In this document: in pieces, positions 5 to 63,957 of the stretch
Position numbering within the stretch: the stretch's first letter is position 1
How the letters are laid out: each line of letters starts with the position of its first letter
NCBI GenBank assembly: GCA_965287045.1
Contig: OZ336885.1
Span: 63,922,001 to 63,986,000, forward strand
Reading direction: 5' to 3'
DNA: 64,000 nucleotides
DNA from: Carcharhinus amblyrhynchos
Taxonomy: Eukaryota
Program-made: the position numbers and the translations under genes
Notes under the pieces: model-generated
The model's database searches: none
Told to the model about the DNA's origin: nothing
What the model saw: the letters and a program-made list of their open reading frames with translations, nothing else

Positions 5-31
5 CTCTTTCTTTTGCCTTAAGATTCGATT
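5..31 (-). CDS. Micro-exon, 27 nt, phase 1: (E)SNLKAKER
   Basis: cacctcgacag|AATCGAATCTTAAGGCAAAAGAAAGAG|gtat; the donor is cut by the window edge. Confidence 0.6.
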
Positions 32-544
32 CTGTCGAGGTGTAACAGGCAACCAAAGGATTTTGAATTTATCGAGTGAAGAGGCACATTGGAAAATGTT
101 GTTTGTGAACACAGTAAGTCAGTAAACGGTATTTAACAGTTGGTATCCCAAACTGCTAATGTTGTCATTATTACTTGATTGAATTTGAATTCGACGAACA
201 CTGCGTTGCTTTGGTAACACTCAAAACAAGTCCACATCCGTTGGTTCACGAAAGCCAAGGAAGAATACTTTTTAGGTTATCAATAGTCACAATGTAAGTA
301 ATGCCACAATCGGTTCGCACAGAGAATCCCATATAATGGATAATTGTAATTAGGTGCTGTTTTAAATTGGTCATCAATAATAACGAGGAGACAAACATTT
401 TGCACTGATACTAGTTTCAAATTTGCGCCAGAAGATGATAGGTCACAAGAGCGCAAATCTCGAAATGCACCTGTTCAAATAGGCAAAGATTAAACAACAC
501 ATATGTACTGTTCTTTCACTGACAAAGGTAAATAAGGATATCAT

Positions 545-1100
545 TTTGAACATGTATACAAAACTGGTGAGGGAATATCCTGGGTATTGTGTGAGTTTCT
601 GAACAACACATTACAGGAATGACATAATTGCTGTGGAGAGGCTTCAAAGGACATTGATAATAATGTTGTCAGGGTTAGAAATGTGTAGCTTTGAGGAGAG
701 AACAGGTAGGTTGCGGTTATTTTTCCTTTGAAAATGAAAGTGCACAAATATGACTTGTGAGAGGAAGAGATAGAGAGGACATTTTTTTTTTCCTTCGGTG
801 GAAACTTCCAGAACTAGTGGAGATAGATTCAGGATAAGTGGATGAAGGAGCACCGGGGACGTGATAAACAGTGCTTTGTAGCAAGGGGTGTTGTATGTAT
901 GGAATTCCTTGCCGAGTCGATGGTTGAGGAAGACAGCCAGAAAGCTTTTACAATCTAGTATCGCGACCTGAACCGTGAACTTTCTCATCAACAGGTCGAT
1001 GAATGCATTGCCAGCTGAAATTAAAAAGGTGGTTGGGTGTCTTCAGACTGGCATGGACATATTTTGTTCGATGATCTTCTTTTGTGCTGTTTCTTGTTGA
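545..1100 (+). mobile_element. Degenerate CR1 LINE 3' fragment
   Basis: Remnants of YKTLVR..CV.F..HYRNDIIAVERLQR, VWNSLP, and a ggcatggac..tgtgctgt tail. Confidence 0.7.
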
Positions 1101-1304
1101 TTGAACTTTATATCCGTATTGGCTCTCATATGACGTTCAGCGATTTTAAAGGTACATGATTTTCGAAACGAGCAGTTGAAAATGTAAACGAATTTGGATA
1201 TTCGGTTCCGATCCCTGCCAATGAAGAGATCACATAGCCTATTCAGAAACAAACCAAACAGAAATTGTGGAAAACCGAGCAGGTGGAGAACATTCCCCCA
1301 TCCC

Positions 1305-1348
1305 ACCACCCCCCCCCCCCCCCCCCCCGCCACCCCCCCACCCCCCCA
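1305..1348. repeat. Poly-C tract (G-quadruplex-prone on the minus strand)
   Basis: Near-pure C run. Confidence 0.85.
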
Positions 1349-1978
1349 ACTTTGCTCAAACCCAAGTTGTCTCATCCATATGAAATCGCATCATGCAAAA
1401 CGTGTTTTTGTTTTCTGATGGACATCGATCTCATCCTTACACTGATTTAATTAATTCATAGAATTTGTTCAGCAAACAAACATTTATGCTTTGAGTGTAC
1501 AGCAATTGCAGCAACATGCATCACCTGCAAGATGCATTATGTGAAGGAACAGATTTCTTATGTCGGACCTTGAAAACCCACAGCTACTACCAGCTGGCAT
1601 AACAACGAACGCATGCAAAATACGGAGCATGACCCGGAAGCTCCCTTCAAGTCGCCGCCCATTCTCATTTGGAAAAGTATTGCAGTACCGTCACTGCCAA
1701 CGAATCTAAAGCAGGAATTTAACTCACAATGTGCCTCGTGAGTGTGTGACAGGGAAGAGAGTGCAGTCATTGCTAACTCCAATTTTCGTGGCAATGAATC
1801 ATCATCGGTGCAACGGTGCACACAACAAGATAAAGGATATTAAGAACTCATAGTCATTTCAGCTAGGTCCATCTTCCACTTATCTATTATGTTACACTCC
1901 GCCCCCCCCCCCCCACCTCTTCTCCCAAATCTCTTCAGGAGTTGCGTTGATGAGATGTTTTCCATCTTTTCGAGATAC

Positions 1979-2026
1979 CTGGCGCTCGTCGCTGATGATG
2001 ACAATGTTCAGCTTCATTGGTGACTT
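1979..2026 (-). CDS. Candidate exon, 48 nt, phase 1: (E)VTNEAEHCHHQRRAP
   Basis: ctttactaactcag|...GCGCCAG|gtatct; multiple of 3 and open, but the acceptor is only moderate. Confidence 0.4.
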
Positions 2027-2517
2027 CTGAGTTAGTAAAGCAATCCACCTCCAAAAGCCTTTCAGGTTTGGTAAGTCGCATACACTCCACGGGTGTGCCG
2101 GAAATACAACATTGCTAACAGAAGAAAATATCTCCTCATAATATCACAGACTTAACTCCAATCTTGTCACCGTCTCTGGACTCAGAATGAACTTCGTAGA
2201 TGCTGATAGTGCCAGAACGAATTCCATTCTAGTCGAAACTCATGCATAGCTGCTATCTCCATACCAAATTGATGTTCGCAGCAGATTAAAAAAAAGCCTG
2301 AGTGCAAAGATGCCAGAAATAATAGATACATTGCCATCCCCACGAACTGTTCGCTGACGAACGATTTATCTAGATAATTGATGGTGCTTGTCAAAATGTT
2401 TAAGATTTAAATATTAATTAGGTGTTCAATACTGTGTCTTTATGCAAATGCAATTAAATTCTACATTGGTATCAGAGACGATGTCATTGTCAATTCATTT
2501 GCTCAGCGTTTTCTCAC

Positions 2518-2553
2518 CAGATTCTTCAAGTTTAGCCGTAAGATCTTTTATTT
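2518..2553 (-). CDS. Micro-exon, 36 nt, phase 1: (E)IKDLTAKLEES
   Basis: tttttttttgcttctgattaccag|AAATAAAAGATCTTACGGCTAAACTTGAAGAATCTG|gtgaga. Confidence 0.8.
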
Positions 2554-2856
2554 CTGGTAATCAGAAGCAAAAAAAAACTTTTGTTTCGACGTTTAATTTT
2601 GCTGTTTTACAACAACACTACTGCTGGAATGAAGATTTAACAGTCGTAATAACATGATTCCGTGCTCTTGCAGATGAAGGACATTACGATTATATCACTT
2701 ATGCTATGAAATCACAAAATATCCACTGCATTTTTTACAGAATGATTTTCTCTCCCTTGAATACCATTCATGAAATTCAGATTCAAAATGAGGGCGCTAC
2801 AGTTTGAGGTAACACCAATGACAAAAAGTTCGTGCAAATTGCATTATATAGCTCAC

Positions 2857-2862
2857 CTGAAT
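2857..2862 (-). CDS. Candidate micro-exon, 6 nt: (Y)S
   Basis: cctttctccaatataaaatag|ATTCAG|gtgagc; needed to avoid a T+AA stop between its neighbours. Confidence 0.45.
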
Positions 2863-3321
2863 CTATTTTATATTGGAGAAAGGTTAACAGTTGTAATTGT
2901 TGGCAGCATAAGTTTTTAAAATGCATTCCTCATGTTTGCTACACTGAAATTATCAGAGAAGTCAAAGTGAGAAATTGCATTATACATCAAAATGTACCAA
3001 ACGTTGCTGGGATGTATTACAACAAAATACTGAAAGTTTTTTTTGTGTGTGTTACTGGTATCTGATGCAATTGTGTCTCTTTCTGATTTATCAAATGCCG
3101 CTGATTGTCATTTAAATATGTTTGAACGCACCAGCTGTCTCGTCGTTTACGTTCCAAGACAGTCCCTCCAACTAGCGCTTCATAACCCTATCAGAATTCC
3201 ATGCAAAAATATTTTCTTTGGTAGAAATATTCCAAATACGAAGACGTAAGTATTTGTTGTTTGTGTTGCCTGTGCTTTATATTAGTGAATCCTGAGTCTT
3301 GCATTACTGATTCATAATTAC

Positions 3322-3360
3322 ACGCATTCTTGGTAGAGGCATTTCCACTGTAATTCGTTG
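3322..3360 (-). CDS. Micro-exon, 39 nt, phase 1: (P)TNYSGNASTKNA
   Basis: Strong T-rich acceptor ...tttcttag, donor CGT|gtaatt; two N-x-S sequons. Confidence 0.6.
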
Positions 3361-3559
3361 CTAAGAAAAAAAAAACAATGTTAACCTGGCGCCATCTCAC
3401 CTCCGCCAATCCAATTCTGGAATTGTGAGGTGAGAGCAATGGCGCCAGAGACTGGACTGATATAACTGAAGCCCCTACCCCTCACTCTTCAGTAAACTAC
3501 AATTAAGGACACAGCTGGAAGTATTAGCAGCACTTTTATGAAATGTATCATCCACACAG

Positions 3560-4190
3560 ATAAGATTGAGGCGAAGGGATTCAGAGAAGGTGATGGAGTT
3601 AAAAGGACGTGAGATTTGTGGAGTTTTATGGAAAGTGGCTGTGACAAAACCTGTAATAGATACAAGCAGGAACTGAAATTCACGAGAAATTGAGACCGAC
3701 GTCACGGCAGGGAAGGAAAATGTTGGAGATAGGTCATGTGAAGATGCACGAGAATTTGAAGACCAGAAGTGAACTTGATTTTTTTTTTACACATCCAGGT
3801 AAGAGAATGTTGTGTCAATGAAAACAGTCCTACCGATGAAAGAGTTGTTGGAGCGCAAAGTAAGACAGGGAAACAAAGGTTCAATATATTCCAAAAGGCA
3901 ACAGGCATAACTGATACGCACCTGGGTCCTCAGAGCCACACACCTTCTTGGCTGGATTTGAGGCAGGTTAAGCAGAAATAGTAAAGTGAAGATGAAATTG
4001 AGTCAGATGTAGGAAAGTTGCTATGGATGGGAATTGCTTGGGCCACTGGTCGATGACAAAAAACAGAGAGTTAACAACACATCTTGGTTCAGAATGGCCA
4101 CATAGAGGGAATGGATATTCACGGCAAAAAACAGGCGGTTGATTCACGGTTTTGGACGTTATATACAATTTGGGAAATCCTGGGCAACAC
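3560..4190 (-). mobile_element. Very old L2-like LINE 3' fragment
   Basis: Minus-strand remnants resembling the L2 ORF2 C-terminus (LNQ.V.NL.V..DP; LLVFK..PYL). Confidence 0.45.
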
Positions 4191-4199
4191 ATTACTTAC

Positions 4200-4226
4200 G
4201 GTTGATCTGCTGATTATCTTTGATTT
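4200..4226 (-). CDS. Micro-exon, 27 nt, phase 1: (E)IKDNQQIN
   Basis: ttcgttcttgctcag|AAATCAAAGATAATCAGCAGATCAACC|gtaagt. Confidence 0.75.
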
Positions 4227-4899
4227 CTGAGCAAGAACGAAATTAACATATTCATAATGATCCAATACTAAAACACTTTAGAGTCTATAGGCAGAACTCA
4301 AAAGGGTGGACAATTTTCCCTTCTGCAATTAGTTTTATGCTGCACGTTCTCCTTGCAAAAGTAATACAGAATCGTGAGTTTCGAGACCTTCAGAGACAAT
4401 GGGTTGCTCAGCTTGAACGTGCCTTGTTTGGTCTCTGTTATTCCCTGCGGTGATTTTTTTTTTCAATCACAATGCTAAAAATAATATCTATGTCCGCCTG
4501 CAAAGGATGGTAGGATATCCGATATTGATGTTGGGTTCACTTATCTGAGCATTTTCTTTGAATTGAGTTCATTAAATAAATGCAATATTATAGATTTCTA
4601 TGAGCAATATGATTTACCGGACGGCATATATGCTTTTAGTAAGCTCCACAATGCTCGTGTGCAGTCTCAAAAGGAAGACCAGCAACGTTACTTAATTTGT
4701 TCTCTTCCAAACCACTTATACACAGAGGAGGTTGATGATATGGGCTTCAATTAGATGTGTCACTGACTCTGCTTCGTAAGTGATCAAAGTATTTCACGTC
4801 TGATACTCAGAGAACGGATGGCCAAATCACTCTTGTCAGGAATTTTCATGAGACATATCCGATTGTGTTCCAAGTTAGAAAAGAAACATGTTTGTCTTA

Positions 4900-5318
4900 T
4901 GTTACACAGTGCATGGGCACTGAAGAAGAGAAAGGGTTAATGAATGATGTACTTAGAATTTGTGCACTAGCATTGCAAACCTTATCTGTTTATGCAGGCT
5001 TTTGTGCCAACTAAACATAGCTAAAGAGCTGCAGACGCTGAACCGCGATAACGGCTGTTTGTAAGGAGCTGCAATCGAGACTGGAGCCATAAGAACTGTG
5101 GTCGTGACTGGAGCTGGGAACTGAGACTGTGACTGGGCCCGGGGACTGTGTCGCGACTAGGAGTGGAATACATAATATATAAATATCCACACTTACTTGT
5201 ACTTGGGGAGAAGTCTGCCAGATCGCTTCATGAAACAAATTCTCCCAAAAGCTTTTGTAATAAAGACACTGTAATTTGACTCAGTCACAACCTCAGAGGT
5301 ATTATTTTACCTACAACA
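4900..5318 (+). mobile_element. Possible solo LTR
   Basis: Internal gactggagc-type repeats, TATA-like tatataaa, AATAAA then a terminal ...ctacaaca; 5' end and TSD not identified. Confidence 0.4.
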
Positions 5319-6366
5319 GGGACCATGTGCTGAAGCAGGCATGAACATGTTGTTTGTTTTCTTGGCCAAAATAAACACAGAGACTATTTATTCCATGACT
5401 TTTTTTTTCAGATAAAGTAAGCAACGGTCCGTTATTCTATTCCTGGCTTTTAGTTGTTCCAAGTGTATATTTCCAATATTAAATACGTCCTGTGAACATC
5501 TGTTAAGAAATAACGGAAGCTCATTATTTATTTAATGATTTAGCATTTTATGTTCAGGTATAATGCCTGCGAACATTGTTTGATCGTGCACCTCGACATA
5601 TGCTTTGTGAACCCTAACATATCAATCGATTTCATAAGCCTCTGCCCCGTTCCAAAATTTGGTGCATTATTCTTATCAAGCTGGAAGTAAAAAAAAACAT
5701 GTAAACTTTTTTTTAGGAAAGACAATAACATTTATATGTGCAGAAATCCATTAGAGGTGTCGGTGCTTTTGAAGAAAGAAGTCTGTCGAAAAGTTGCCTT
5801 CGTCTTTTGCTTTGATTTTCCAGAGTGTTTGGGGGTGCAGAGTGAACAGCACAACGTCGAAAGAAACATAATATTTATTGTGTGAGTGAATTTCATTATG
5901 GTAAAACAAAACATGCTACACACAAAATGCTAAATGGAATTACATGTTGATTGTATCCTGGATACATAACTCATGGCCGTTCAGTTCAATACTCATGATA
6001 CAGAGTTCAGCGGACATAGTTGCTGGACACTCTTAGATGGCCATTCTGTTTATGTTCGGCTGGGCACATTATAATACATGTCAACAGAAACCACATTGTG
6101 CCTATCGCCATATACTGCACTGTACGTTAACGATGCCATTTTAAATGCAAACAATACGCTTGCAAAATGTTTAGAAGCAATAATATTTGTCATATCAAAT
6201 AACAGTAAGCCACTTGTTGCTCACTTAGATCTTTTAGGGATCGTTGACAGTCGCTCAGATCTGCAATTCAGAAAATGGAAAACCCAGTCTGAAAAAATGA
6301 ACAAGAATTGACAGATGTCCTATTGCATGAACGTGGACTTTAATAAGTTTGCTTGGTACATCTTAC

Positions 6367-6387
6367 CCGTTGGTGTCGACGAAACGA
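6367..6387 (-). CDS. Candidate micro-exon, 21 nt, phase 1: (F)VSSTPT
   Basis: Strong donor CGG|gtaaga, weak aag acceptor; needed to avoid a T+AA stop between exons 7167-7178 and 4200-4226. Confidence 0.45.
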
Positions 6388-6599
6388 CTTTTCAGGACAC
6401 AATTGCGAAATTGCAGATGATGTCAACCAATGAATTAGAAGAAGGGAATTTGATGATACGGTAGACGTCTGCAGACAGTCTTAGAGAATGTGAACACAAA
6501 CTACAGGTTACAGTTATGGACAACTGTTTCGCATGCAGTTAGAATGCAAGACAATCATGTATTTTAACATTGTATAGAATTTGACCCTGGGGCTTCTCC

Positions 6600-7050
6600 T
6601 GGGAATTATTAAATTGCAGCCATTGAAGTGAGCATGGAGTTGTCATGAAATCAATGCAGGATGCTTACATTTGGGGAAATGCAAAGCAGGAAACAGACTT
6701 CCTGGTAAACCCGCATGGGACTGCAGTTCTGACTCAAGTAGAAGATCGTGGATAATATGGGTATCACAGTTCAGCAAGAGGTAAGGATGTCACCGAGGGT
6801 GACAATACATTGCTGAGTCTCCAAGAACAAAAAATGTATACGCCTACGTGGGGGACTTGGGGTAATTTGCAGCTCCGGGGACTTCTTACGATAAAGTTGA
6901 ACTTATACTTGATTAAGATTTGGAATGACATGAACATGGAATGACGGCAGAACCTTTTAATACTTGGACTGGTTATGAGGCCAAACATGTTCGGTGATTG
7001 GAAGCAAAACTCGGCGAGGCATTGGGAATAAATAGGGTTCTGCAGATCGT
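6600..7050 (+). mobile_element. Degenerate CR1 fragment
   Basis: Remnant of the M.FN..C..LHFG..Q..F.VN region downstream of RT. Confidence 0.5.
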
Positions 7051-7166
7051 TCAGCTCAGTAGTGCATTACCAAATAATATTTTGAGCGCATATTTCAATA
7101 TAATGAAAAAATGAACGCTGCATCAATTGTTTTTCTTTCCCCTGCGTGGATTGCTAAATTACTCAC

Positions 7167-7178
7167 ACAGAGGACAGG
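7167..7178 (-). CDS. Micro-exon, 12 nt, phase 1: (A)CPL
   Basis: cttcttctttccctctatacag|CCTGTCCTCTGT|gtgagt. Confidence 0.7.
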
Positions 7179-7300
7179 CTGTATAGAGGGAAAGAAGAAG
7201 CGTGGCTTCATGCTGTTCTTAAATCAATCATATTATTTGATTTGGTGCCAATGCTGAAAGTCTTTTCAAAAGAGTCGTTTGCTGCCAAGCAGAGTGGTAC

Positions 7301-7488
7301 GGCGCAGCACAGTAGCACAGTTGTTAGGAGTGTTGTCTCACAGCGCCAGAGAGCCGGGCTCAATTCACATCTTGACTCACTGCCTGCGCGGTGCCGACAC
7401 ATTTTCTCCGCGTCAGTTTGTGTTTCAACTGGTTCCCTCCCACGGATCGAAATACGTGCTGTTAGTTAAATTAGCGATGTCAAATTAT
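7301..7488 (+). mobile_element. HE1-like tRNA V-SINE (old)
   Basis: gcagcacagtagcacagttgttag..ctcacagcgccag..; homologous to the young copy at 51498-51835. Confidence 0.8.
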
Positions 7489-8259: not shown

Positions 8260-8274
8260 CGTTTTCACATTTCT
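8260..8274 (-). CDS. Micro-exon, 15 nt, phase 1: (E)KCEN
   Basis: tttctttctttctgttacag|AGAAATGTGAAAACG|gttagt. Confidence 0.7.
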
Positions 8275-9032: not shown

Positions 9033-9068
9033 CTAAAGCTTTTGCTGTTTCTTCATATTTGCTGAACT
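9033..9068 (-). CDS. Micro-exon, 36 nt, phase 1: (E)FSKYEETAKAL
   Basis: attatgtatttcag|AGTTCAGCAAATATGAAGAAACAGCAAAAGCTTTAG|gtaaac. Confidence 0.7.
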   Translation of the reverse strand, partial: SSANMKKQQKL

Positions 9069-9738: not shown

Positions 9739-9753
9739 CCTTCTTTAACTTTT
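9739..9753 (-). CDS. Micro-exon, 15 nt, phase 1: (E)KLKK
   Basis: ctgcacaaatcacag|AAAAGTTAAAGAAGG|gtaagt. Confidence 0.75.
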
Positions 9754-12542: not shown

Positions 12543-12578
12543 CAAATTTATAATGAAGTTCTTTGCAGTCGCTCAGTT
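12543..12578 (-). CDS. Micro-exon, 36 nt, phase 1: (E)LSDCKELHYKF
   Basis: ttttttgttatccgtgttgacattgcag|AACTGAGC...AAATTTG|gtgagt; only phase 1 is open. Confidence 0.8.
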
Positions 12579-14970: not shown

Positions 14971-14999
14971 TATAAAAGTAATGTGATTTCCTTCATCAG

Positions 15000-17400: not shown

Positions 17401-17404
17401 CTAA

Positions 17405-18355: not shown

Positions 18356-19630
18356 TTGATCTTGCTATTCTTCAGATTGCCGCTGGAGCTGAGGAGGAGG
18401 AAATGGAGGAAGAATTGCTGGCCCAGGAGGCGCGGGCCGGACCATTTAGAGGAGTCGAATGAGACGACCATTAGAGGCAGGATGTGGACATCATTCATCC
18501 AGAGCAGGGGCTTTGGAGAAGGACGGGACAAAAACCTCGGCAGTTCCGTGCACGAATGCCGTTCGAGGAGATGTCCGACACCATATGCTGCCGACGTCTC
18601 TGATTCTGAAAGGATACCATGTGACACCTATGCAACCTGTTGCAGGAAAAGGCGCCTAAGTGCGGAGCTGGGGGCGGGGTGGGGGGGGGGGGTGGGTGGC
18701 AGGGGGGACCCGCTCTCAGTGTCTGTCAGATTGATGGCTGCTTTCAACATTTATGAAACTGGTGCATTCCAAACCCCGATCGTAGATGTCTGTGGTATAT
18801 CCTTGTCTTCAGTCTTCACCCGTGTCAAGCAGGTCACTGAAGACCTGTATGCCCAGGCTGGTCAAAACGTCAAATCCAACCTGGAAAAGGCCCATCTGGA
18901 CTCCGGGGCTGTGGAGATCGTTGCAATTGCGCGGGTGCTGAATGCACAGTGAGCGGTCGGCTGCACCTATGTCGCCCTCAGGGCCCCCTACACAATCCAC
19001 GGCAATTTGTTAATAGCAAGGGGTTCCACTCCCTGAATGTACAAATTGTGTGTGACAACAATATGAGAATCATGAACGACTGCGCGAGACATCCAGGCAG
19101 CTTGCATGACAAATCCATTGTAAGGAGGTCAGACATCCCGCAAGTATTTGAGAGCCCAAACTGCGGGGGTGGCTTCTGGGTGATATGGTTTACTCGCTTC
19201 CGACATGGCCGATGACGCCTCTGCGGAGGCCAGTGACTGCTGCGGAGACGCGCTATAATGAAGTCCATGTAGCCACCCACATGACAGTAGAGAGCTGCAT
19301 TGAGATCCTCAAGATGAGATTCGGGAGCCTGGACCTATCCGGAGAGGTCCTCCAGTGAAGCCTCCTGATCTCCTCCTGCATAGTGGTGGTTTTTGCAACT
19401 TGCACAATCCAGTTTTGCAGCGATGTGACATCTTGGAGGAGGAAAAGGGCGTGGAGAATGATCAGCTGATTGTCACTAGAGATGATGTGCGGCAGGAGGA
19501 CGAGGAAGGGGAGGAGGAGAAAGAGGAGGATGAAAACACCTTGAAACGCCTGTCAGATGGTGCAGGGCTGGGATCTCAGGTGAGGCATGGAAGAGCGGCG
19601 AGGGAGGCTCTGATCATTGGGTGGTTCAGT
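18356..19630 (+). pseudogene. Harbinger (HARBI1-like) DDE transposase, frameshifted
   Basis: AAFNIYETGAFQ..DVCGIS; NSKGFHSLNVQIVCD..CARHPGSLHD; WLLGD..W.MTP.R..ETRYNE.H..E.CI.ILKMRF. Confidence 0.92.
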
Positions 19631-32925: not shown

Positions 32926-32961
32926 CTAAATTATTCAGTGATTTTTCCCAGTCTTTTAGAT
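32926..32961 (-). CDS. Micro-exon, 36 nt, phase 1: (N/D)LKDWEKSLNNL
   Basis: ttttattttactgcacgtag|ATCTAAAAGACTGGGAAAAATCACTGAATAATTTAG|gtgaga. Confidence 0.8.
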
Positions 32962-33669: not shown

Positions 33670-33684
33670 TCTTTGCTGTTTTGT
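33670..33684 (-). CDS. Micro-exon, 15 nt, phase 1: (D)KTAK
   Basis: tttttttttctgcatcacag|ACAAAACAGCAAAGA|gtaagt; acceptor resembles that of 9739-9753. Confidence 0.8.
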
Positions 33685-35902: not shown

Positions 35903-35938
35903 CAAGTTCGTTGACTTTGTTTTTCAAGTTTTCTATTT
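35903..35938 (-). CDS. Micro-exon, 36 nt, phase 1: (E)IENLKNKVNEL
   Basis: atatttgtgtttcag|AAATAGAAAACTTGAAAAACAAAGTCAACGAACTTG|gtgagc. Confidence 0.8.
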
Positions 35939-36720: not shown

Positions 36721-36747
36721 CTTCAGATTTTTGATTGAGTTCATTTT
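36721..36747 (-). CDS. Micro-exon, 27 nt, phase 1: (E/K)NELNQKSE
   Basis: cctcatctcgcag|AAAATGAACTCAATCAAAAATCTGAAG|gtatga. Confidence 0.75.
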
Positions 36748-43127: not shown

Positions 43128-43154
43128 GATACTTTTCTTGCAGGCCGTCAAATT
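43128..43154 (-). CDS. Micro-exon, 27 nt, phase 1: (E)FDGLQEKY
   Basis: tttatatttatgttactacag|AATTTGACGGCCTGCAAGAAAAGTATC|gtgcgt. Confidence 0.6.
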
Positions 43155-49800: not shown

Positions 49801-50460
49801 AAGTAGACATTCACCCTATGAACGATATGATTCCTGTTACAATTAAAAATAAAAAACTAGCAGGTCAAGAATATTAAGTGTCCATGTTTCAGATTCACAC
49901 TACAATTCTTAATGAATCCGAAAATACAGTTAGTCTATTTGTTTTCTTGCTTCGTGGTTCGCATATTTCAACCATTTTGAAAAAAAAATCAGATATAATT
50001 GAAACGGGTGAGCTTATAAAGAGAACGAAGTGTTTACAACTTGTTTTTAATACAGTGGCAGACGTAGATGTAAAATAGTTCCGTGCAATTTTGGACATTT
50101 TCATGTTGGGTTAACTAAGTGTGAAGTCATCATACCCCTGGAAACTCTTATCGTGGCGCCTGCATATCTCTATAGACCACTTTCCTTTGCAAGTCCACTG
50201 TCCCCGTCAGATCCACATCGTTCGGAGCTCGTGTATGGACATCTATGCTGTCTAGGGGATTCCATGCCTTGGAAGATACATTGCCAACCCTCCACCAACT
50301 TAACAGGTTGACACATGTTTTACAAGATCGAAGTTATGGGGGAAAAATGAAATATATTACTGTTCACTCGTATATGCACATCAGAACAGCATCGTCATTT
50401 TGATTAATCTAAATATCTATCTACAGCTCTAATTGGATCGATTTTTTTTTCACCCATTCA

Positions 50461-53317
50461 TGCTGCCGGGATAGTTTCCTTGAACAGTGTGTGTTGGAGC
50501 CGACGAGGGAGCGAGCTATCTTGGATCTGGTATTATGTAATGAGGAGGGTAGAATTAGGGACCTTGCGGTGAAGGATCCTCTTGGGGAGAGTGATCATTG
50601 TATGGTGGAATTTCTGTTGCAGATGGAGGAGGAGAAAGTGGGTTCCCGGACACGCGCCCTTTGTTTGTACGGTAGGGTGAGAGAAGAATTGGCGAATGTG
50701 GACTGGGGGAGCACGTTGGAAGGTAGGTCTGTTGAGGAGCAGTGGAGGATCTTTAAGGAGATCTTTCTTGGTGCTTAGCAGAAATTTATTCCGATGGTCA
50801 AAAAGGACCGTAGGAGGAGGGGGAATAAGCCGTGGATAACGAAGGAGGTGAAGGAAAGTGTTAAATTAAAAGCGGAAGCGTTTAGAGTAGCTAAGAGTAG
50901 TGGGCGAGAAGAGTATTGGGAGAGGTTTAAATGTCAACAAAGATTGACAAAGAATTTGATAAAGAAGGGTAGGAGAAACTATGAAGCTGGTCTAACGCTT
51001 AATATAAAAAAAATAGCAAGAGTTTTTATAAATATATAAAAAGGAAGAGGCTGGCTAGGGTGAACGTTGGACCCTTAGAGGATGAGAAGGGGGACTTAGT
51101 GGTAGGGGATGGGGAAATGGCTGAGGTCTTGAATAACTTTTTTGTTTCGGTCTTCACGGAGGAGGATGTGAATACTTTGCCGGGTGTTAGAGATGGAAAG
51201 GTGGTAGGACTGGAGGGTCTCAATGACATTATTGTTACTAGAGAGGCGGTGCTCGACAGACTGGAGGGACTGATTGTGGACAATTACCCAGGACCGGATG
51301 GAATGCATCCGAGGGTTCTGAAAGAAATGGCGGCGGTGATAGTGGATGCCTTGGTGGTTATTTTCCAAACGTCGCTGGATTCCGGGGAAGTGCCGGAAGA
51401 TTGGAAAACAGCTAATGTTACGCCGTTGTTTAAGAAGGGTGCCAGGCAAAACGCAGGGAATCATGGGCCGGTTAGTTTAACGTCTGTTGCGGGTAAAATA
51501 GAATCATAGCACGCTACAATGCAGAAAGAGGCCCTTCGGCCCATCGAGTCTGCACCAAACACAATGCCACCCAGGCCCTACCCCCACATCCCTACATATT
51601 ATACCCACTAATCCACACATCCCTGGACACTAAGGGGCAATATCTTAGCATGGCCAATCAACCTAACCCGCACATCTTTGGACTGTGGGAGGAAACCGGA
51701 GCACCCGGAGGAAACCCACGCAGACACGAGGAGAATGTGCAAACTCCACACAGACAGTGACCCGAGCCGGGAATCGAACCCAGGATCCTGGAGCTGTGAA
51801 GCAGCAGTGCTAACCACTGTGCTACCGTGCCGCCCAGTGTATTAATTCATGGGATGCAGAAGTCGCTGCTTAGTTTAGCAACGGCTTCCCATTCCCTTAC
51901 TGTCCCCTGAGGTGTCAATGTCACTGGTGAGGCCACCGTTATGTTAGAATCCGTCATCAAGGAGGAAATAGCGAGGCATCTTGAGGGGAATTGCTTGATA
52001 GAGCAGACGCAGCACGGTTTCTTTAAGGAGAAGTCGTGTTTGACAAATTTACTGGAGTTCTATGAGGATGTGTCTAGGGCGGTGGATAGAGGAGAGCCGG
52101 TGGATGTGGTCTTCCTTGATTTTCAGAAGGAGTTCGACAAGGCACCTCACAAGAGGTTGTTGCAGAAGGTCAGGGGACATGGAGTTGGGGGTAGGGTGTC
52201 AGCGTGGATAGAGGATTGGTTGTCAAATAGGAGGCAGAGAGTGGGGGTCAATGGGTGTTATTCGGATTGGCGGATGGTGACTAGTGGAGTGCCTCAGTGG
52301 TCGGTGCTGGGGCCTCAGCTATTTACCATTTATATAGATGACCTGGAGGAGGGAACCGAGTGTGTGGTGTCGATATTTGCTGATGACACCAAGATTGGTG
52401 GAAAGGCAAATTGCGCGGAGGGTGTGGAGAGTCCACAGAAGGATCTAGATAGGCTGGGCGAATGGGCCAGGAACTGGCAAATGCAATTTAATTTTGGCAA
52501 GTGCGAGATGGTCCACTTTGATAGGCATAATGGTAGGAAGGATTATTACTTACGTGGCGAAAACCTGCAGCAGGCGACGGTGCAGAGGGACTTCGGGGTC
52601 CTTGTGCATGAGCCGCAAGAACCCAGCCTGCAGGTGCAGCAGGTGGTCAGGAAGGCTAATAGCATGCTGGCCTTCATAGCGAGGGGGTTGAATATAAAAG
52701 TAGGGAGGTCTTGCTGCGGCTGTATAGGACATTGGTGAGGCCGCAGCTGGAGTCCTGTGTGCAGTTTTGGGCGCCGTACTTACGCAAGGATATTTTGGCC
52801 TTGGAGGGAGTGCAGAGGGGGTTTACTAGGCTGATGCCGGAGTTGAAGGAGTTGAGCTATGAGGAGAGGCTGAATAAACTGGGCTTGTACTCGTTAGAGA
52901 TTAGAAGAATGAGGGGAGATCTCATTGGGACGTATAAGATGATGAATGGGATGGATAGGATAGAGGTGGAGAGTCTCTAACCCGCTCAGAAAGGACAGTA
53001 GGACTAGGGGTTACAGCCTCAAGATAAAGGGGGGGGGGGCGCGGTTTAGAACGGAGTTGAGGAGGAACTTCTTCACCCAAAGGGTGGTGAATCTCTGGAA
53101 TTCTCTGCCCATTGAAGTGGTGGAGGCTACCTCGCTAAATATTTTCAAGACGCAGGTTGATGGGTTTTTGATAAGCGAGGGGATTAGGGGTTTTGGGGAG
53201 AGGGCGGGAATGTGGAACTGAGCCATGACTGATCAGCCGTGATCTTATTGAATGGCGGGGCAGCCTCGAAGGGCTAGATGGCCTACTCCTGCTCCTATTT
53301 CTTATGTTCTTATGTTC
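50461..53317 (+). mobile_element. CR1 LINE, 5'-truncated, relatively young (end of endonuclease + RT + 3' UTR)
   Basis: PTRERAILDLVL, GESDH, PGPDGMHPRVLKE, QHGF, VFLDFQKEFDK, SGVPQWSVLGP, FADDTK; (TTCTTATG)n tail; several frameshifts and stops. Confidence 0.97.
51498..51835 (-). mobile_element. Young full-length HE1 SINE inserted in the CR1
   Basis: GGGCGGCACGGTAGCACAGTGGTTAGCACTGCTGC head, B box GGGTTCGATTCC, V domain, CR1-derived tail; splits SLTSVAGK|MLES. Confidence 0.95.
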
Positions 53318-55299
53318 GACAGGTATGCAAGCTGTTTTGCCAACAATGCAGCACGTTTTTTTTTATTAATTAACGTGACACATTGTTGTCGCTTACCTTC
53401 CTCCTTTTTTTTTGCAATTCCACATCATCTCTCAATCTACTATTTAAAGGCCGTCGCAAAGTGCTTTCATCGGCTGACGTTGAGCTTATTCACAAAAGTT
53501 GTTTCATAAAATGTTGGCACACTGAAATATCTAAGTGAAGGAAAAAAAAAACGGTTCTCAGTCGTCAATTGTTTCTCCTCAATTAAAACAGATATTGCCT
53601 TTTAGTTTTGCATTAAGATTGGTTTCTGTGCATGTGTAAAAACATAGAAGGATAATATCAATGCATGAGTTTATGTGTTGTAAATTATGTCTATGAGTGA
53701 AAAAGAATATTGTTCAGTAATCCACATATTTTCGTTAACATTGTGACAGGAACGCCAATATTCAAACTCCCGTTTCAGACATTGCTCTTTTTTTAAGCTT
53801 GTGGTTGAATGGAGTTTTAATTTTAACGTGCTGAAAGGTCGTCAATCAAGCAAACCTGTCTCTTTTTTTGGTTAAAGCTGTCTGTTTCACTATTCTGGAA
53901 TATCCTTGTCACCAGTAGCCTTGAATTTGTCAAAGTAAATCAAGTGTAAGAATCCATAGCTTGACCTTAGCAGGGGTGAGTTGTGAACTCACTTTTGGAG
54001 GTCAGTGTCCCTTCGCTGGGCGTTAGAATGTAAACAATATATTCATAATAATAAAGTATGAAGAGTCAAATGATACGACGATTGGATTTAATTGGTCTAA
54101 TCAAACAATGCAATTGGGCTTCTGATCAATTCATTGTCTGATTACTAAGGAACTTCTGGAGTTTTAACTCTGACAGCACAAAGAGCTTGGTCAGAAAGTG
54201 TGAAGATCCCGGGAGCCAAGAACACAAGAAGAGGCAATGTCTGGAAAGGGATGAGAAGAAAAAACTCATTCCATGTGACAACAAAACCTTGGACCGGTTT
54301 TAAGCGCAAGGTGAAGTCAACCTTACTTTATTAAAAAAAGACGTCGTGAGTATTTGGTTTATGCGTTACAAGTATTTACCGTTGTTTATATAGATACAAA
54401 GTAAAGGAAATCGCGTTTAACGATTTAATGTCGACTTCGTGTCTTTATTCTGTTGCAGAACTTAAAACACAAAGGTTTGGAAAACAGAAACGTCACCCCA
54501 GATGCGACCTGGTCAGAAATAACTGTAAAGGTTAATCCGGGTTGGACTCTAAAATAAACAAATGATTTTCATCAAACTTAATGTTTTCTCTGAGCGAATA
54601 AATGCAATATAAGTGGCCCTAACTCAAACTCTAGAGACAAAAATAGCTAACGCTGTAGACAGCCGTGATTGGGATTAAAGCCCTATTTTTTGGTAGGATT
54701 TTAGGAGAAGGATGGATTGGGCGTGAATTGCTTCACGTTCCTGATACGCCAGTTGCAAGGGGAGTCGGAAATGTTTTGGGATGCTTGGGGTGGATTGATT
54801 CACTTCCCTGATACGCCAGGCGATGGGGGAGTAGGAATTATTTTTTCAACAAAACAAGTTCCTGGGAAAAATGGTTTGCCCTCCACCTTTGATATCATCG
54901 AGAAGCAATGGGAAAAATGGCAGAGTTTTTGAAATATGAAGAAATATAAAGAGATTGTCACATTGGGTGGAATTTTATACCAATCCTGAACAGGATCTGG
55001 GAACCGTGGATCATACATTTTGGAAGGAAGGGAGTCGAGCCCAAGGGAAGTGAGCAGATAAAATGAGTAAAGTCGTAGCAATTGCAAGTTGTTTGAGAGA
55101 GTTACAAGGAAAACAAAGGGAAGGTAATTGTTTAAATGGTGAACTGCAGTTGCAAGGTTAGAAATAGAACAACTGCGAGTAACAATGATGATGAGATATG
55201 ATGACATGGAAAGTGTAAGAGGATGTTAAAATTAAAACGAATAGCATGGAGAAAGATATACCCATCTTTTGATAGAAGTGGCAGTTCAAGATTAACGAA

Positions 55300-56493
55300 A
55301 TCAAACGAATATGCGGCATATGGCTTAGTTTCAGGTACAGTGTGAAAAAAAGTTTATCATGAAATGGAGGGATTCAGTTTTGAAAGGCATGAGGGAGAAA
55401 AAAAATGTGTCTGTGTTAACAGAGTAATTCACAAATCTGCAGGCAGCATTTAAGTTTTTGCATCAAGTTAGTAAAGAAAAGATGTTCCAAAATCACTATG
55501 TCCCAGTGACAGTTTGAAGAGTTGAAGTCATAATTGGCAGTACAGCAACGAATGATAGGTGCATTTTCGAAAGTTGAGTTGCAGGATAAGGATACTTCAG
55601 GAGATTGTGGTGATTTGCAGGCAACAACTTAGCAATATTCAGAACATGGGAAGTTTCCGTTCAGCACTCACAGCCACCTCTATTCCAATCAACACAATTA
55701 CGGGGCACAATGATTCTGAGACAGTTACGTATCCAACTCCATTCGCTGTCGCACAGTTAGCTGAGATAGTCAAGAATGTCTCTGTGTTTGAGTCAGCAGC
55801 AGGCCAGTTTGCTTCCGTTGGAAGTATGAGACAGCAGGGTGTGCTTCATGGGTTGCATCAGGCAGGTGAGGTAAAAGTTTGTGTAAAGCGACTTTTTTCC
55901 AACTGTGAAATCTACATTCCCGATGTTCAAACTGTTGGGGAGGGAACTTTAGTGGAGATGAAAGAAGCGATTTTAACTGCAATTGGAAACAATAAAGATG
56001 CCTCGGTAGAAGGTAGGCAGCATACGGGGGAACATCCAACGCAATTTGCCAATCGCTTATGGATCACTTTTCAGAATTGCTTGGGGGAATTAACACAGTC
56101 CGCGTTCATATAAGGAAGGCGCTGCCGTTGATATCACATGCACCTGAGGGGAACCAGAAGGCTTGCGTGCCCATTGAACCAATTAATATAACATATATTG
56201 AGGCATGGACTATAAGGTATATCATCCAAGCTTGGTAATGGGAAATACTGGATTTAGAAAAGAGGGAAAACAAAGCTACAAATAGTGGGAAAATGTTGCC
56301 GGTGAGAACTTCTAATCCTGCCCCTAAATGGAAAAATGAATGTAGACGGCCAGGCAATGGTGTTTACTCACGGAATTCTCCACCATATGGGTTTCATGGT
56401 AGAGGTCAGTCTATGGGTGACTTTAGGCAAATAAAGTGTTTTCATTGTGGGCGATTAGGACGTTTTGCTCGTGACTGTAGGGGACATTTCTAA
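55300..56493 (+). pseudogene. gag: gag remnant with zinc knuckle
   Basis: Q..GEHPTQFANRLW capsid-like motif; CFHCGRLGRFARDC (CCHC with H>R); start approximate. Confidence 0.8.
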
Positions 56494-56699
56494 TCATATA
56501 CTCGATGTCCACGACCTGAGCTGGGACCGATGCCCAGCCAGGATTCAAGACTGGAGTCGAGTCTGATTCTGACAGGGTCATTGTAAGTTGTCGTTAGAGG
56601 GATCAGTGCAGCAAGCCCCAGTTTGGGAGACAGGAAATGGCAGTTTGCTTTGTCCTGAACTCGCGGCATATGAAATGAGACAATGACAGTGCCTGTCCT

Positions 56700-59600: not shown

Positions 59601-60110
59601 CATGTGGCTAAAACAATGGTACAAAAAAGTAATTCTACCTGGGACATAGAGTTGCCTTTTGTACCAATTATAATATGAAACGGTGTTTCATATTCTACTG
59701 AGTATGCACTTCAAATGCTAATGTTTGGGTCTCTTTTGAAACGTGTTAAACATCTGTTGGGGACAGATGATGAAGATCCCGTACTTACGCTCTTAATCAT
59801 GAAGACATACTGCAGCAATTGTTAGAGACTGTACAGACTGCACATTTAGCAGCAACTGTCAAGATGGAACAGAAGAAACGTCAGAGCAAGGCCTGTTTTA
59901 TGAGTAGTGCAAATTCAGTTGAATATGCTGTAAGACAAACGGTGATGCTTCTGTAGAATCCTGGTAGAGTGTTTTTTATTCCCTCCAAGTTGTTCAGGTC
60001 CTTATGTTCTAATTGAAAAAGCTATCCCGTCTCTGTACAACTTGCCCTTAGAAACTGGGAAAGCTGGTTGGTGCCATGTTAAGCAGTTGAAATTATATGG
60101 GGTACAAATT
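56700..60110 (+). pseudogene. pol: pro-pol remnant (protease, RT, tether, RNase H, integrase)
   Basis: ILGCDF; NSPI*PVRK; VLDFSNGFVSIPL..QYKF.FTF; GFHNP; YxDD segment appears deleted; YVDG at 58435, SAQ.A.L, SDSMYV, NNRADEL; CLIC; IDCIGPL; FSKWVEIFP; YHPQS.GIVERMNRTL; GPY; WCHVKQLK. Confidence 0.92.
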
Positions 60111-60699
60111 AATTATCAGTATCACATGACGTTAGAAACTTATTACATTGATGACATTTCTTCAAATGATTCAGACCCTGAACACATTCTTAGTCATTTT
60201 CTTTCAAAGTCTAGGTCAGTAGAACTCCTTTAGATGCTTCTATAGAAAACAAGAGTCCTGAATTATCTGCAGACTTTGCAGAAAATTCCGAGCATTGGAA
60301 GCATTGGGACGTATAGATTTAGTACATACTTCTTGTCATAAAAAAAGATAAAATCTTTTGCCAAAGGGAAGTCTAGTATTCCAAAGTTCGAAGGTCGGAA
60401 ATGATATGTGACAGATACTAATGACAATATTCAAGAGTCAGTGGTGAGTCAGTGGAAGGGTGATCAGCAACTATTAGTTAGACAGGCTTTTTCAAAGCAA
60501 AATGCTGCTGCAATTAGTGTAAGGCTATAAAATGAGCTTCTAGGTAGACAGAATGATGTACGTATTAAGAAAAGTGCGATAAACCTATTAAATTTGTGCC
60601 TAAACAAGCTCTCAAATAATGAAACAAATTTTAATTCTCATGGGGCTCCAGGCCAAAGTTTCTGAGGGTAATTCTTACATGTTGCGCTATCTTGTCGAT

Positions 60700-62400
60700 A
60701 AATTACACTTCATTTTGACACCCTATGTTCTTTGTGCAATCTAGAGTTTCTCTTATTTTTCTTGGATGGATCATCCCTCATTTTGTCTGATCAATAGTTT
60801 TCTATTGCTTCTTCTCACGAGAATTGGTTACTGCCTTTCATCATGGAATTCGTTTCATTATGGGACATTGTGTTATCATCCTATAGAGGTAATGATTTGC
60901 AAATGCTCATGTTGGTAAAATACATCGTTTGAAGTTGTTATCAATTTTCCAGTGTAAAGGGTAGAACTTTCGATTTAAACCACGTTTGTTCGAACAGGAA
61001 GATAAATTCTTTCGTTTCAAAATAAGAACAGGAGCTAATTTAAACTGCGCATAGCAAGGTACTGCCTTGGTTTGTTGCAGGGGAAATAACTTTTTATTTT
61101 CCGTTGGAACTTGTCGTATTTTGCAGAATGATGTGGAGCCGTCAAAGTCGGTATCTTACAACAGTTGTAAGAATGGACAGCAGCGAGATTCATGGTTATT
61201 CCCTCGACTGAAGCACGGTGCGAAGATGGACATTTCTGGGTGAATCCAGATGCAACCGTTATGTTTGAATGTCTATACATGTTTAAATATGAGTTTGCTG
61301 TACAAAGATATAATCAAACCCATTGCCGCATGTTTTGGTTTGTAAGAGGTTTGATTATATCATTAGGCATATCGTCTTTTAGTGATAACTGTACATTTTG
61401 AAATATTATGTTGAACTGACCTGCCCTGAATTGAGATTTGTTGAATTCAAGTTCCAATACACATTTCTGATAAGTATTGACATGTTATTGACGAAGGAAT
61501 TCATTATGGAGATAATTATGACCTTAATTATTAAGTATGTTGGAGAGTTGAACTTAACTCTTTAGTACCTTCTTTGGTCGACAGCACACTTGCATTTAAA
61601 TCTGATTTTTACTCATCCATCTCATCTTCACCAAAGGTATATTCTTGCCGTGTGAATGCACTTTGACCTCAACATTGTTTAGTAATAACAGATACAAACA
61701 GGATCAGGTATGAAAATATTCATCATGAATTGATATCAGTTGTATTGGATTTCATTAAAATGCATTCGTTTGATTGATGTCACACTCAACTTTAGGATTT
61801 TTATTCATATGTAACTCAGAGGTTGGTAAATCGAGAAGCCAGAAATGAAGAGTGAGACTTTTTTTTTTGCTTTACGGTCACCAGAGTAGGAAGTCAGTGA
61901 ATGATTTGACAAATGCTAAGAGAGCATAAATGTACACGCTTAATACGCTCGATTTGGAAATCTGGTCGTTAAACTTCAAACACTAACGTGCAGGTTAAGC
62001 AAGAAATGAAGTAAATGACAACAATCAGAACGCTGCATCAGGATCATCGTTCTTGCAACGTGCTTATAAATATGTAAGAGCTATTTTGGAGATACATGCT
62101 AAAATCATTGTTCAAATTATTAGAGACGGGGAGATTGATGACAAAAAAAGAAAATAAAACATAATAAAATCTTATGTAGTGTTTATTGGAACTAGATATG
62201 AGACCAGACTAGAGAAAATATGGAATAAGCCAATCAGGTGAATGTTCCTTCCTGGATTAATAATGATCTGTTTGATTATCTGAATCGTGTACAAGGACAT
62301 CCTAATGTGCCCCGATTTCAGTTTCGACAATTAGCTACGAGACTACGACGAATAACTGTTTTGAAGGGTGATTTGTCGTGAACAATCAGGTGTCTGAAAT
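60700..62400 (+). pseudogene. Putative env remnant
   Basis: Located after IN; Cys/Trp-rich fragments; SRKSVNDLT..TLNTLDLE..KLQTL and VPSWI suggest a decayed cleavage site and start of TM. Confidence 0.4.
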
Positions 62401-62439
62401 TTCTAGGTGTTACCAAAACACTTCATACAGATCTGTGAA

Positions 62440-63011
62440 TTCTTCTTGAAGTTGGACAAGAATTTGGTAAGGGGACGATTGGAAATAGTGTGTACCGTTC
62501 TGGTCACCTGTTTTGGGAATAATATTATTAAAATAGAAAGAGTGCGTGACATATTTCATGGGACGCTGCCAAGATTTGGTGGCTGGAGTTACGAGGAAAG
62601 GTAGGACAGACTGGGACTTGTTTTCTTTTTCTATGGAGCGTCGAAGTCTTAGAGGTGACCACTTAGTGACATTTCAAATAATGAGGAACATCAATAATGT
62701 GGTTAGTCAATATTTTTACCTAAAATTTGGAGAGCCTGTAACTAATAGGCTCAGGTTTAACATGAAGGGGTGAGATGGAAAAGTAGTCCTGGGGGCATTA
62801 TATTTTCCAGACACAGCGTGGGGAGTGTTGGACCGAGTGCAAACATTCGTCACAGATGCGGGTACAATTTTGTATTGAGCAAAAACATTTAGTGTTAAAT
62901 AGTCAATTTTGGTACAGAGGGATTGGGTAGATGCGGGCAATGTGGGCCAATTTATTGTGAAAGTGGGCAACATGGACAAGTTGGGCCGAAGGTTCTGTTT
63001 CCATGATGTAA
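62440..63011 (+). mobile_element. CR1 3' fragment
   Basis: KNLVRGRLE..IIKIERV..SYEER; tail catggacaagttgggccgaagg. Confidence 0.85.
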
Positions 63012-63121
63012 GCGCACGCAACATCATAACTCGAAAAAAAGCAATGGCATAGGAAGACATGTTGAGCAATTCAAATGTGCGGATTATGTCCGGATAGGCC
63101 ATCAAAAATGTCGGCATTTAC

Positions 63122-63160
63122 TTCCGAGTCAGGTGTTATGCAGAAAGTTGTTTTCTTTCT
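63122..63160 (-). pseudogene. 39-nt exon-like segment with an in-frame TGA: (E)KENNFLHNT*LG
   Basis: gtcctttattttcag|AGAAAG...CTCGGAA|gtaaat. Confidence 0.45.
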
Positions 63161-63921
63161 CTGAAAATAAAGGACTGTGTATACCGTTTTGTACGCGAGC
63201 ACAACGGTGGTGATGGTTCACTGGTCGCAGCTTAGGAACACTCAACTGATATTTACTTAAATTTCCTCAATTGCAAACTTTTTTTTTCGACGGGTTCAGG
63301 AGAGTAAAATATACCCAATCTCCTCTTGTGGTCAAGATGATAACAATGAGACCTGTATGATACTCAGTTCAATGTTCACAACAAAAAACATCGAACAACA
63401 TTTCAATCTGTTCGTGCCTGCTCTGAGTAGACGTAACATTGGGCTCAAGACAAGTACAAAGGACTATTTTGCACAGCTGTGCGCGGTTTGCAATGAACGA
63501 GATAATGCCTTTGAAAGACAACATCAAACACAGGTGTCATCTTCCGAGGCATGAGCAATTTGATTCCATTCTTCTGATATATCACAGACAAGGAGCATCA
63601 CTACAAAGTCACGATTTATTCTCCATTTATATATTTTTGAACTTATTCAACAATGAAAATGTGTCTGTTCGGTTGGATGCCAGAAAAAAATATTTTCAGT
63701 TTCCAAATTATCTGAATATGTTGATGACCCTTGGGATAATAATACATTTCCTCCAAAACGATGCGTTTCGTTTGTGGTTATTAGTCATATCGTTTAAAGT
63801 GTCACCCTCTATATCCGAAGTATTATTTGACTCCAGGTGTTTCATGACAAAACTTTTACCAGCTTGAAAAGTGTTTTAAATCATAATACATTGATTCAAA
63901 ATAAGAATGTAAAATACCCAC

Positions 63922-63957
63922 CTGACTTCTTCAATGCAGCTTCGTTGGCACTGAGAT
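63922..63957 (-). CDS. Micro-exon, 36 nt, phase 1: (D)LSANEAALKKS
   Basis: tattttctgcattgcag|ATCTCAGTGCCAACGAAGCTGCATTGAAGAAGTCAG|gtgggt. Confidence 0.8.

What the first reader, a model, noticed from the sequence alone, without database searches (positions are those of the whole stretch)
5..63957. Hidden micro-exon gene: about 20 symmetric phase-1 exons of 6-48 nt across the whole 64 kb
Seen: reading the minus strand for polypyrimidine-YAG ... GTRAG pairs gives short segments that are mostly multiples of 3 (six of exactly 36 nt, four of 27, three of 15). They are open in phase 1 and E/K/L-rich, e.g. DLSANEAALKKS, EIENLKNKVNEL, xLKDWEKSLNNL, ELSDCKELHYKF, EFSKYEETAKAL, EIKDLTAKLEES. Only two comparable candidates were noticed on the plus strand. 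Known: runs of symmetric micro-exons allow combinatorial skipping (schistosome MEGs, chicken BG/butyrophilin-like heptad exons, triadin). Inference: a shark gene with a variable-length coiled-coil stalk or tail built from exon cassettes, easily missed by ab initio annotation. Family not identifiable because the domain-coding exons would lie outside the window.
Basis: partly seen in the sequence, partly recalled or inferred. Interest (0 to 1): 0.88.

Follow-up and report, generated by a model that had tools for sequence, protein, structure and literature searches.

The report
Megabase shark micro-exon B30.2 rod gene
The tiny exon-like segments are far more numerous than chance allows and belong to a run of about 1.7 million bases in a cartilaginous-fish genome that likely splices into one very long helical rod protein tipped with a B30.2 binding domain, a gene type that database annotation appears to break up and mislabel.

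Summary
The window has 13 strong and 2 weaker phase-1 exons of 36, 27 or 15 nt on the minus strand, against 1 on the plus strand and 0.25 in shuffles. Its 6- and 48-nt candidates are unsupported.

The array runs from about 65.44 to 63.74 Mb of contig C16 (an 0.8-Mb part was only sampled, about a third read) and ends 186 kb downstream in an intact B30.2 (SPRY) exon. Paralogous exons show a coding substitution pattern, and genomic exon order keeps the heptad register (0 of 200 order shuffles match it), which argues against free combinatorial skipping.

Six such B30.2 exons lie on C16 and one on the MHC contig. With shark, ray and chimaera database models they form a clade apart from the TRIMs and butyrophilins sampled. 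No Ig, RING/B-box or transmembrane exon was found, so membership of the butyrophilin, BG or TRIM families is not met. The N-terminus and localisation are unresolved, and no RNA could be laid on this gene.

This scan has already reported this family on other DNA of this and other genomes; seven literature searches found no description.

The parts
63922..63957 (-). 36-nt phase-1 exon, DLSANEAALKKS
53599..53625 (-). weaker 27-nt exon candidate, ETNLNAKLK, weak GC donor; may be degenerate
   Evidence: same order as paralogue exon ETKLKAKMQ
43128..43154 (-). weaker 27-nt exon, EFDGLQEKY
   Evidence: same order as paralogue exon EYQNLQAKC
36721..36747 (-). 27-nt exon, ENELNQKSE
35903..35938 (-). 36-nt exon, EIENLKNKVNEL
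   Evidence: 79% DNA match to the paralogue 490 kb away
33670..33684 (-). 15-nt exon, DKTAK
32926..32961 (-). 36-nt exon, DLKDWEKSLNNL
12543..12578 (-). 36-nt exon, ELSDCKELHYKF
9739..9753 (-). 15-nt exon, EKLKK
   Evidence: paralogue ERIKK
9033..9068 (-). 36-nt exon, EFSKYEETAKAL
8260..8274 (-). 15-nt exon, EKCEN
6225..6260 (-). 36-nt exon, DLSDCQRSLKDL
   Evidence: paralogue ELADCQRALRHR
4200..4226 (-). 27-nt exon, EIKDNQQIN
2518..2553 (-). 36-nt exon, EIKDLTAKLEES
5..31 (-). 27-nt exon, ESNLKAKER; the array continues beyond this end of the window to a terminal B30.2/SPRY exon outside it (coding part G000:C16:63,735,737-63,736,257, minus strand, about 186 kb away)
   Evidence: terminal exon

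Best explanation
The window is a 64-kb middle slice of a minus-strand array of phase-1 micro-exons, about 1.7 Mb long and ending in an intact B30.2 exon, that is likely spliced in order into one protein of roughly 1,800 residues, predicted to be a long parallel coiled-coil dimer holding a pair of B30.2 ligand-binding heads at its tip. Shown: the exons, their phase, the heptad pattern (a 36+27-nt pair is exactly three heptads, with Leu/Ile at a and Leu/Cys at d), the terminal exon and the paralogues. Inferred: splicing into one mRNA; a dimer (from the a/d composition and the analogy with butyrophilin, TRIM and BG coils); a rod of about 240 nm; inter-chain disulfides at the d-position Cys; and export from the cell, which I put at about even odds. 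The rod would act as a spacer or cross-linker grown by exon-plus-intron duplication; skipping would be a minor modifier rather than a combinatorial code.
For: Strand and length bias. 111 strong exons, 1,109 codons, in the 700 kb next to the B30.2 exon. Continuity upstream: 15 minus versus 1 plus exon in 28 samples of 10 kb, 11 of 28 samples positive, then 14 more of 21 nt or longer up to 65.42 Mb. No other B30.2 exon of this group between 63.74 and 66.44 Mb among the 150 of 332 genome-wide candidates scored. Same layout (21-nt zone, then 27/36-nt zone, then B30.2) and matching exons in the head-to-head paralogue. Paralogous exon pairs chosen by DNA identity: codon positions 1/2/3 identical at 111, 125 and 92 of 166, flanks 333 of 1190, p=2e-4 for position 2 versus 3. 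Heptad power in genomic order 0.641 versus 0.324+/-0.071, 0 of 200 order shuffles. A catshark database model joins ELAILRQKY and KELEVK, matching two of the last exons of this array, to a B30.2 of this group. A 1,697-aa chimaera model has the same rod plus SPRY; 49 exons of 36 nt match it better than heptad-preserving shuffles (25.3 versus 22.6+/-0.4, max 23.6 of 50). Cys lies mainly at d positions (11 of 17 in 36-nt exons at position 5; 12 of 20 in 27-nt exons at position 7). Two of seven related models inspected begin with a hydrophobic stretch.
Against: No spliced read for this gene was seen. About 530 kb of the 814 kb between 64.44 and 65.25 Mb were not read, so a hidden terminal exon or gene boundary is possible. 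No first exon was identified: the one signal-peptide-like candidate near 65.457 Mb is no rarer than background (2.3 per 100 kb), and five of seven related models lack a hydrophobic start. The tandem paralogue downstream shows no recognisable first exon in its 80-kb upstream interval. In a relative's DNA two window exons carried 3 changes in 51 nt (1 silent, 2 replacing), no fewer than the roughly 5.7% background; only 40 of 91 difference rows were displayed and the sample is tiny. Exon matches to the chimaera model are not collinear (Spearman p=0.39). The exon sets used for the paralogue test were pre-selected with an amino-acid composition term.
Confidence: 0.62

Rival explanations
1. The 1.7-Mb array is two or more transcription units (for example a separate gene at 65.27-65.44 Mb, or internal promoters giving short rod-plus-B30.2 proteins), and the window's exons belong to a shorter gene or to an array that shares exons by alternative first or last exon use.
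For: Database models of this group are mostly short, 175-460 aa. The downstream paralogue starts mid-array with no first exon found. The most upstream zone has no counterpart in the head-to-head paralogue. Two thirds of the 64.44-65.25 Mb part were not read.
Against: Unbroken strand, phase and heptad register over the 700 kb read in full; collinear layout with the head-to-head paralogue; a 1,697-aa chimaera model exists. Short automated models are expected where micro-exons are missed (inference).
Confidence: 0.2
2. The exons form a combinatorial cassette system: skipping produces many rods of different length, like schistosome micro-exon genes.
For: All exons are symmetric phase 1. Automated isoform models of related genes differ by single in-frame blocks of 9 aa (catshark, ray, chimaera) and 6 aa (ray).
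Against: Exon order preserves the register, and the hydrophobic position within 27-nt exons depends on their neighbours, so single skips shift the register. The isoform models differ by one block each, belong to other members of the group, and their RNA support was not checked.
Confidence: 0.1
3. The array is the cytoplasmic tail of a conventional butyrophilin/BG-type receptor, or the coil of a TRIM, whose Ig plus TM or RING/B-box exons were missed.
For: Heptad repeats followed by B30.2 is the butyrophilin tail plan (PMC8813856, passages); best solved relatives are BTN3A1 and TRIM7 domains.
Against: 0 of 57 butyrophilin-type IgV matches lie on C16. tblastn with fetched TRIM and butyrophilin proteins hit only the B30.2 exon or repeats in 63.42-64.44 and 65.25-65.69 Mb. 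No TM exon stood out. The B30.2 falls outside the TRIM/BTN rows of the tree.
Confidence: 0.05
4. The array is a decaying or silent relic.
For: No extra conservation in one tiny relative comparison; one exon with a weak GC donor; large gaps of 27 and 20 kb between strong exons, each holding a mobile-element remnant.
Against: All six B30.2 frames on C16 are open; coding signature between paralogues; strong splice sites across more than 100 exons.
Confidence: 0.03

Closest known systems
Butyrophilins (BTN/BTNL)
   Same: Heptad region followed by a C-terminal B30.2 (PMC8813856 and PMC4046983, passages); best PDB sequence hit BTN3A1, E 3.6e-18.
   Different: No IgV/IgC or TM found; the heptad region is over 1,100 residues instead of short; the B30.2 belongs to a separate clade; two His positions of the BTN3A1 phosphoantigen pocket align to non-His residues (alignment; residue roles recalled).
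Chicken BG genes and the soluble zipper protein
   Same: Long coiled coil encoded by strings of small exons, 13-36 exons of 21 or 24 nt per gene (PMC4046983, passages); the upstream zones here also use 21-nt exons.
   Different: BG has IgV plus TM and no B30.2; here there are about 170 or more exons, mostly 27/36-nt pairs, over about 1.7 Mb, ending in B30.2, and this cluster is not on the MHC class I contig.
Enterophilins (guinea-pig leucine zipper plus B30.2; architecture recalled, paper not held; only the SNX1 link seen in PMC13749957 passages)
   Same: Long heptad zipper ending in B30.2 without Ig or RING (recalled).
   Different: Much shorter and mammalian; no sequence comparison was made here.
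TRIM class with PRY-SPRY
   Same: Coiled coil then B30.2; fold matches TRIM7, E 5e-9; database models of this group are auto-named TRIM39-, TRIM58-, TRIM69- or A33-like.
   Different: No RING or B-box in the genome region read or in the four models scanned; separate clade.
Callorhinchus milii predicted protein XP_042192744.1 ('nuclear-pore anchor-like', 1,697 aa)
   Same: Same B30.2 clade, long rod with similar 12-residue units.
   Different: Automated prediction with no function known; exon matches are not collinear, so it is a family member, not a shown orthologue.
Schistosome micro-exon genes and triadin (recalled, not read)
   Same: Runs of short symmetric exons.
   Different: Here the lengths are fixed at 21/27/36/15 nt and tied to a heptad register, and a folded terminal domain is present.

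Membership tests
Butyrophilin/BTNL | Extracellular IgV (plus IgC) domain | tested here: not met
   0 of 57 matches on C16; none in 1.45 Mb read in full; part of the array unread
Butyrophilin/BTNL | Transmembrane segment before the heptads | tested here: inconclusive
   No convincing TM exon; first exon not identified
Butyrophilin/BTNL | Heptad exons followed by B30.2 | tested here: met
   (linkage by splicing inferred)
Butyrophilin/BTNL | B30.2 groups with butyrophilin domains | tested here: not met
   15-row clade at 100/100 apart from 6 BTN rows and 14 TRIM or other rows; tree unrooted
Chicken BG | Single IgV plus TM, no B30.2 | tested here: not met
   B30.2 present, IgV absent
Chicken BG | Long coil from small symmetric exons | tested here: met
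Chicken BG | MHC linkage | tested here: not met
   80 of 80 MHC class I matches on C9, none on C16; one member of the group is on C9 at 106.38 Mb
TRIM | RING and B-box | tested here: not met
   Pattern scan and tblastn negative; none in four related models
B30.2/SPRY domain proteins | SPRY domain above the Pfam cut-off and B30.2 fold | tested here: met
   PF00622 50.7 bits versus cut-off 26.3; fold matches (model pLDDT 64.7, first 39 residues poor); PRY not matched by Pfam
Combinatorial micro-exon genes (MEG-like) | Extensive exon skipping in transcripts | not testable with these tools
   No RNA holder listed
Secreted coiled-coil proteins | Signal peptide | tested here: inconclusive
   Candidate not above background; 2 of 7 related models have a hydrophobic start

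The most novel reading that the evidence does not exclude
Cartilaginous fishes have their own ancient family of megabase genes, each with 100-200 micro-exons, that encode secreted or surface-tethered, disulfide-stitched coiled-coil rods a quarter of a micrometre long carrying a distinct Trp-rich B30.2 recognition head; paralogues differ in rod length, and register-preserving exon-pair skipping tunes the reach of the head.
Probability: 0.25. Interest if true: 0.85.

Novelty: new variant of a known kind. Interest (0 to 1): 0.6.

Why it matters
If spliced as inferred, this is among the most exon-fragmented vertebrate gene designs: about 170 or more exons of 15-36 nt over about 1.7 Mb, with seven related B30.2 loci in one genome and relatives in sharks, rays and chimaera. 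Current databases hold mostly short 3' fragments under TRIM names. It offers a natural test of how chains of micro-exons are recognised across multi-kb introns, and of whether exon phase or coiled-coil register limits skipping. It also bears on the origin of the heptad-plus-B30.2 tail shared by butyrophilins and, in part, BG proteins. The weight is reduced by the lack of RNA evidence and of a known N-terminus, and the building blocks are all known.

Tried and rejected
RNA: no RNA holder listed. The four runs laid on the terminal-exon region behaved as genomic DNA of relatives, so they say nothing on expression.

N-terminus: Ig, RING, B-box and TM pattern scans, tblastn with fetched TRIM and butyrophilin proteins, hydropathy scans and a signal-exon scan gave nothing above background. 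A 111-nt candidate exon at 65.441 Mb matched only itself in the genome. The skate model's N-terminal 122 aa found nothing useful (1 match, E 3.45). The Atlas search of the chimaera rod gave only hits under 0.9.

Dropped candidates: 6-nt, 48-nt and other off-size candidates in the window; a first, too strict scan recovered only 1 of the 6 quoted exons. The first trained model was circular and was replaced by the leave-window-out test. A few array exons outside the window overlap repeats (13 of 141 touch a self-match, 8 from a local tandem duplication) and may be false.

Literature: seven searches returned no description of this family; most subscription papers and all supplements were not seen. 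One search was uninformative. No complex prediction was run.
Full report
Observation. The six quoted peptides are present on the minus strand with proper acceptors and donors in phase 1. The window lies at G000:C16:63,922,001-63,986,000 in a 2.92-Gb genome. Using generic splice scores only, over 864 kb around the window, 49 of 329 minus-strand candidates were 36 nt long and 38 were 27 nt, against 2 and 4 of 216 on the plus strand. A model trained on 93 exons outside the window found 15 candidates at threshold 17 on the minus strand (13 distinct), 1 on the plus strand and 0.25 on average in 20 shuffles. Two weaker 27-nt exons fit the order of the neighbouring paralogue. The window therefore holds about 15 exons, not 20.

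Extent. The array continues on both sides. Downstream it ends at 63,736,257 in a phase-1 terminal exon with an open 172-codon frame, a stop and an AATAAA. This is a SPRY domain (E 2.4e-13), closest by sequence to the BTN3A1 B30.2 structure (E 3.6e-18) and by fold to TRIM7 and BTN3A1 (model of moderate confidence). In the 700 kb upstream of it, read in full, 111 strong exons give 1,109 codons, median gap 3.6 kb. From 64.44 to 65.25 Mb I read 28 samples of 10 kb (280 of about 814 kb): 15 minus-strand exons against 1 plus, changing from 27/36 nt to 21 nt upstream of about 64.8 Mb. Fourteen more of 21 nt or longer reach 65.42 Mb. By extrapolation there are about 170 or more exons and about 1,800 residues (inference; weak exons are missed).

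Family. The genome search returned six close B30.2 exons on C16 (60.45, 61.08, 63.07, 63.15, 63.74, 66.44 Mb), all with open frames, and one on C9. The gene ending at 66.44 Mb lies head to head with this one and shows the same layout and matching exons in samples. The gene ending at 63.15 Mb follows in tandem with collinear exons. A tree of 35 domains, with outgroup rows picked from my search hits and cut to their last 200 residues, puts these seven with eight database proteins (shark, skate, ray and chimaera models plus one unnamed) in one clade at 100/100, on a long branch apart from TRIM and butyrophilin rows; the root is only the midpoint. Those models carry automatic TRIM-like or 'nuclear-pore anchor-like' names. 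All 80 MHC class I matches are on C9, so this cluster is not on the MHC contig, although the C9 member is.

Evidence that the exons code. Seventeen exon pairs between the tandem paralogues, paired by DNA identity, are identical at 111, 125 and 92 of 166 sites at codon positions 1, 2 and 3, with flanks at 333 of 1190 (p=2e-4); the exon sets themselves were selected with a composition term. In 36-nt exons hydrophobic residues sit at positions 2, 5 and 9 (79%, 76%, 90% of 63), and a 36+27 pair spans three heptads. Genomic order gives heptad power 0.641 against 0.324+/-0.071 for shuffled order, 0 of 200. A catshark model joins peptides matching two of the last array exons to a B30.2 of this clade, and 49 exons of 36 nt match a 1,697-aa chimaera model better than heptad-preserving shuffles, though not collinearly. 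Against: in one relative, two window exons showed 3 changes in 51 nt, 2 of them replacing, equal to the local background and with no indel in the exons; 40 of 91 rows were visible.

How it most likely works. Shown: exon anatomy, register, terminal domain, paralogues. Inferred: in-order splicing into a parallel coiled-coil dimer of about 240 nm with two B30.2 heads at the C-terminal end, acting as a spacer or cross-linker for a ligand not yet known. Cys concentrated at d positions suggests inter-chain disulfides, and two of seven related models begin with a hydrophobic stretch, so export is about as likely as not; my own first-exon candidate is not above background. Single-exon skipping would keep the frame but shift the register; automated isoform models of relatives do show single 6- or 9-residue blocks missing, so some skipping is likely, but a free combinatorial code is not supported.

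Comparison with known systems. It works like the heptad-plus-B30.2 tail of butyrophilins and the exon-per-repeat coil of chicken BG (PMC4046983 and PMC8813856, passages read; PMC12841164, passages), and recalls enterophilins (recalled; only a table row and a citation seen in PMC13749957). It is not filed in these families: no butyrophilin-type IgV on C16 (0 of 57), no RING/B-box or TM found in about 1.45 Mb read in full, and a separate B30.2 clade.

Novelty. Seven literature searches found no description; supplements and most subscription papers were not seen. This scan has reported the same family on other windows: 8 notes shown of 10 in at least 5 genomes, and 8 shown of 33 notes fitting the words in this genome. 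Those notes are not independent support. Verdict: real feature, new variant of a known kind, interest 0.6.

Noticed in passing
window 18841-19212 (+), within the GC-rich stretch at about 18-22 kb: Fragment of a DDE_Tnp_4 transposase (E 1.9e-9), a degenerate Harbinger-type element (type name recalled) in the 20-kb gap between strong exons.
   Followed up: partly
window 50413-52980 (+): Broken LINE with a reverse-transcriptase fragment (RVT_1, E 1.3e-21) in the 27-kb gap; it supplies the best plus-strand false exon (52127-52168).
   Followed up: partly
window 55559-56113 (+): 184-codon open frame with no Pfam match, resembling by eye another frame about 16 kb further on in the flank; possibly an LTR-element remnant.
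   Followed up: no
L004, about 39-40 kb beyond the window end, minus strand: Intronless frames with IQ-like motifs inside an intron of the array; looks like a processed pseudogene of a calmodulin-binding protein (recalled resemblance).
   Followed up: no
G000:C16:63.65-63.735 Mb: The tandem paralogue begins at the level of the middle of this array and no first exon was found in the interval; shared upstream exons with alternative B30.2 last exons are possible.
   Followed up: partly
P0208 (chimaera model), N-terminal 70 residues: Hydrophobic start followed later by RRKKR, which reads like a signal peptide plus a furin-type site (motif recalled); an automated model, unverified.
   Followed up: no
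alignment A4: The clade's B30.2 keeps several invariant or near-invariant Trp plus Asn97, Arg106 and Gly109, which may mark a shared ligand site.
   Followed up: no
G000:C16, about 64.39-64.42 Mb and 65.389-65.418 Mb: Local tandem duplications of exon-bearing blocks within the array, showing how it grows.
   Followed up: partly
G000:C9, C41, C46, C53, C73: Large clusters of conventional B30.2 exons and butyrophilin-type IgV exons on C46, C53 and C9, separate from this family.
   Followed up: no
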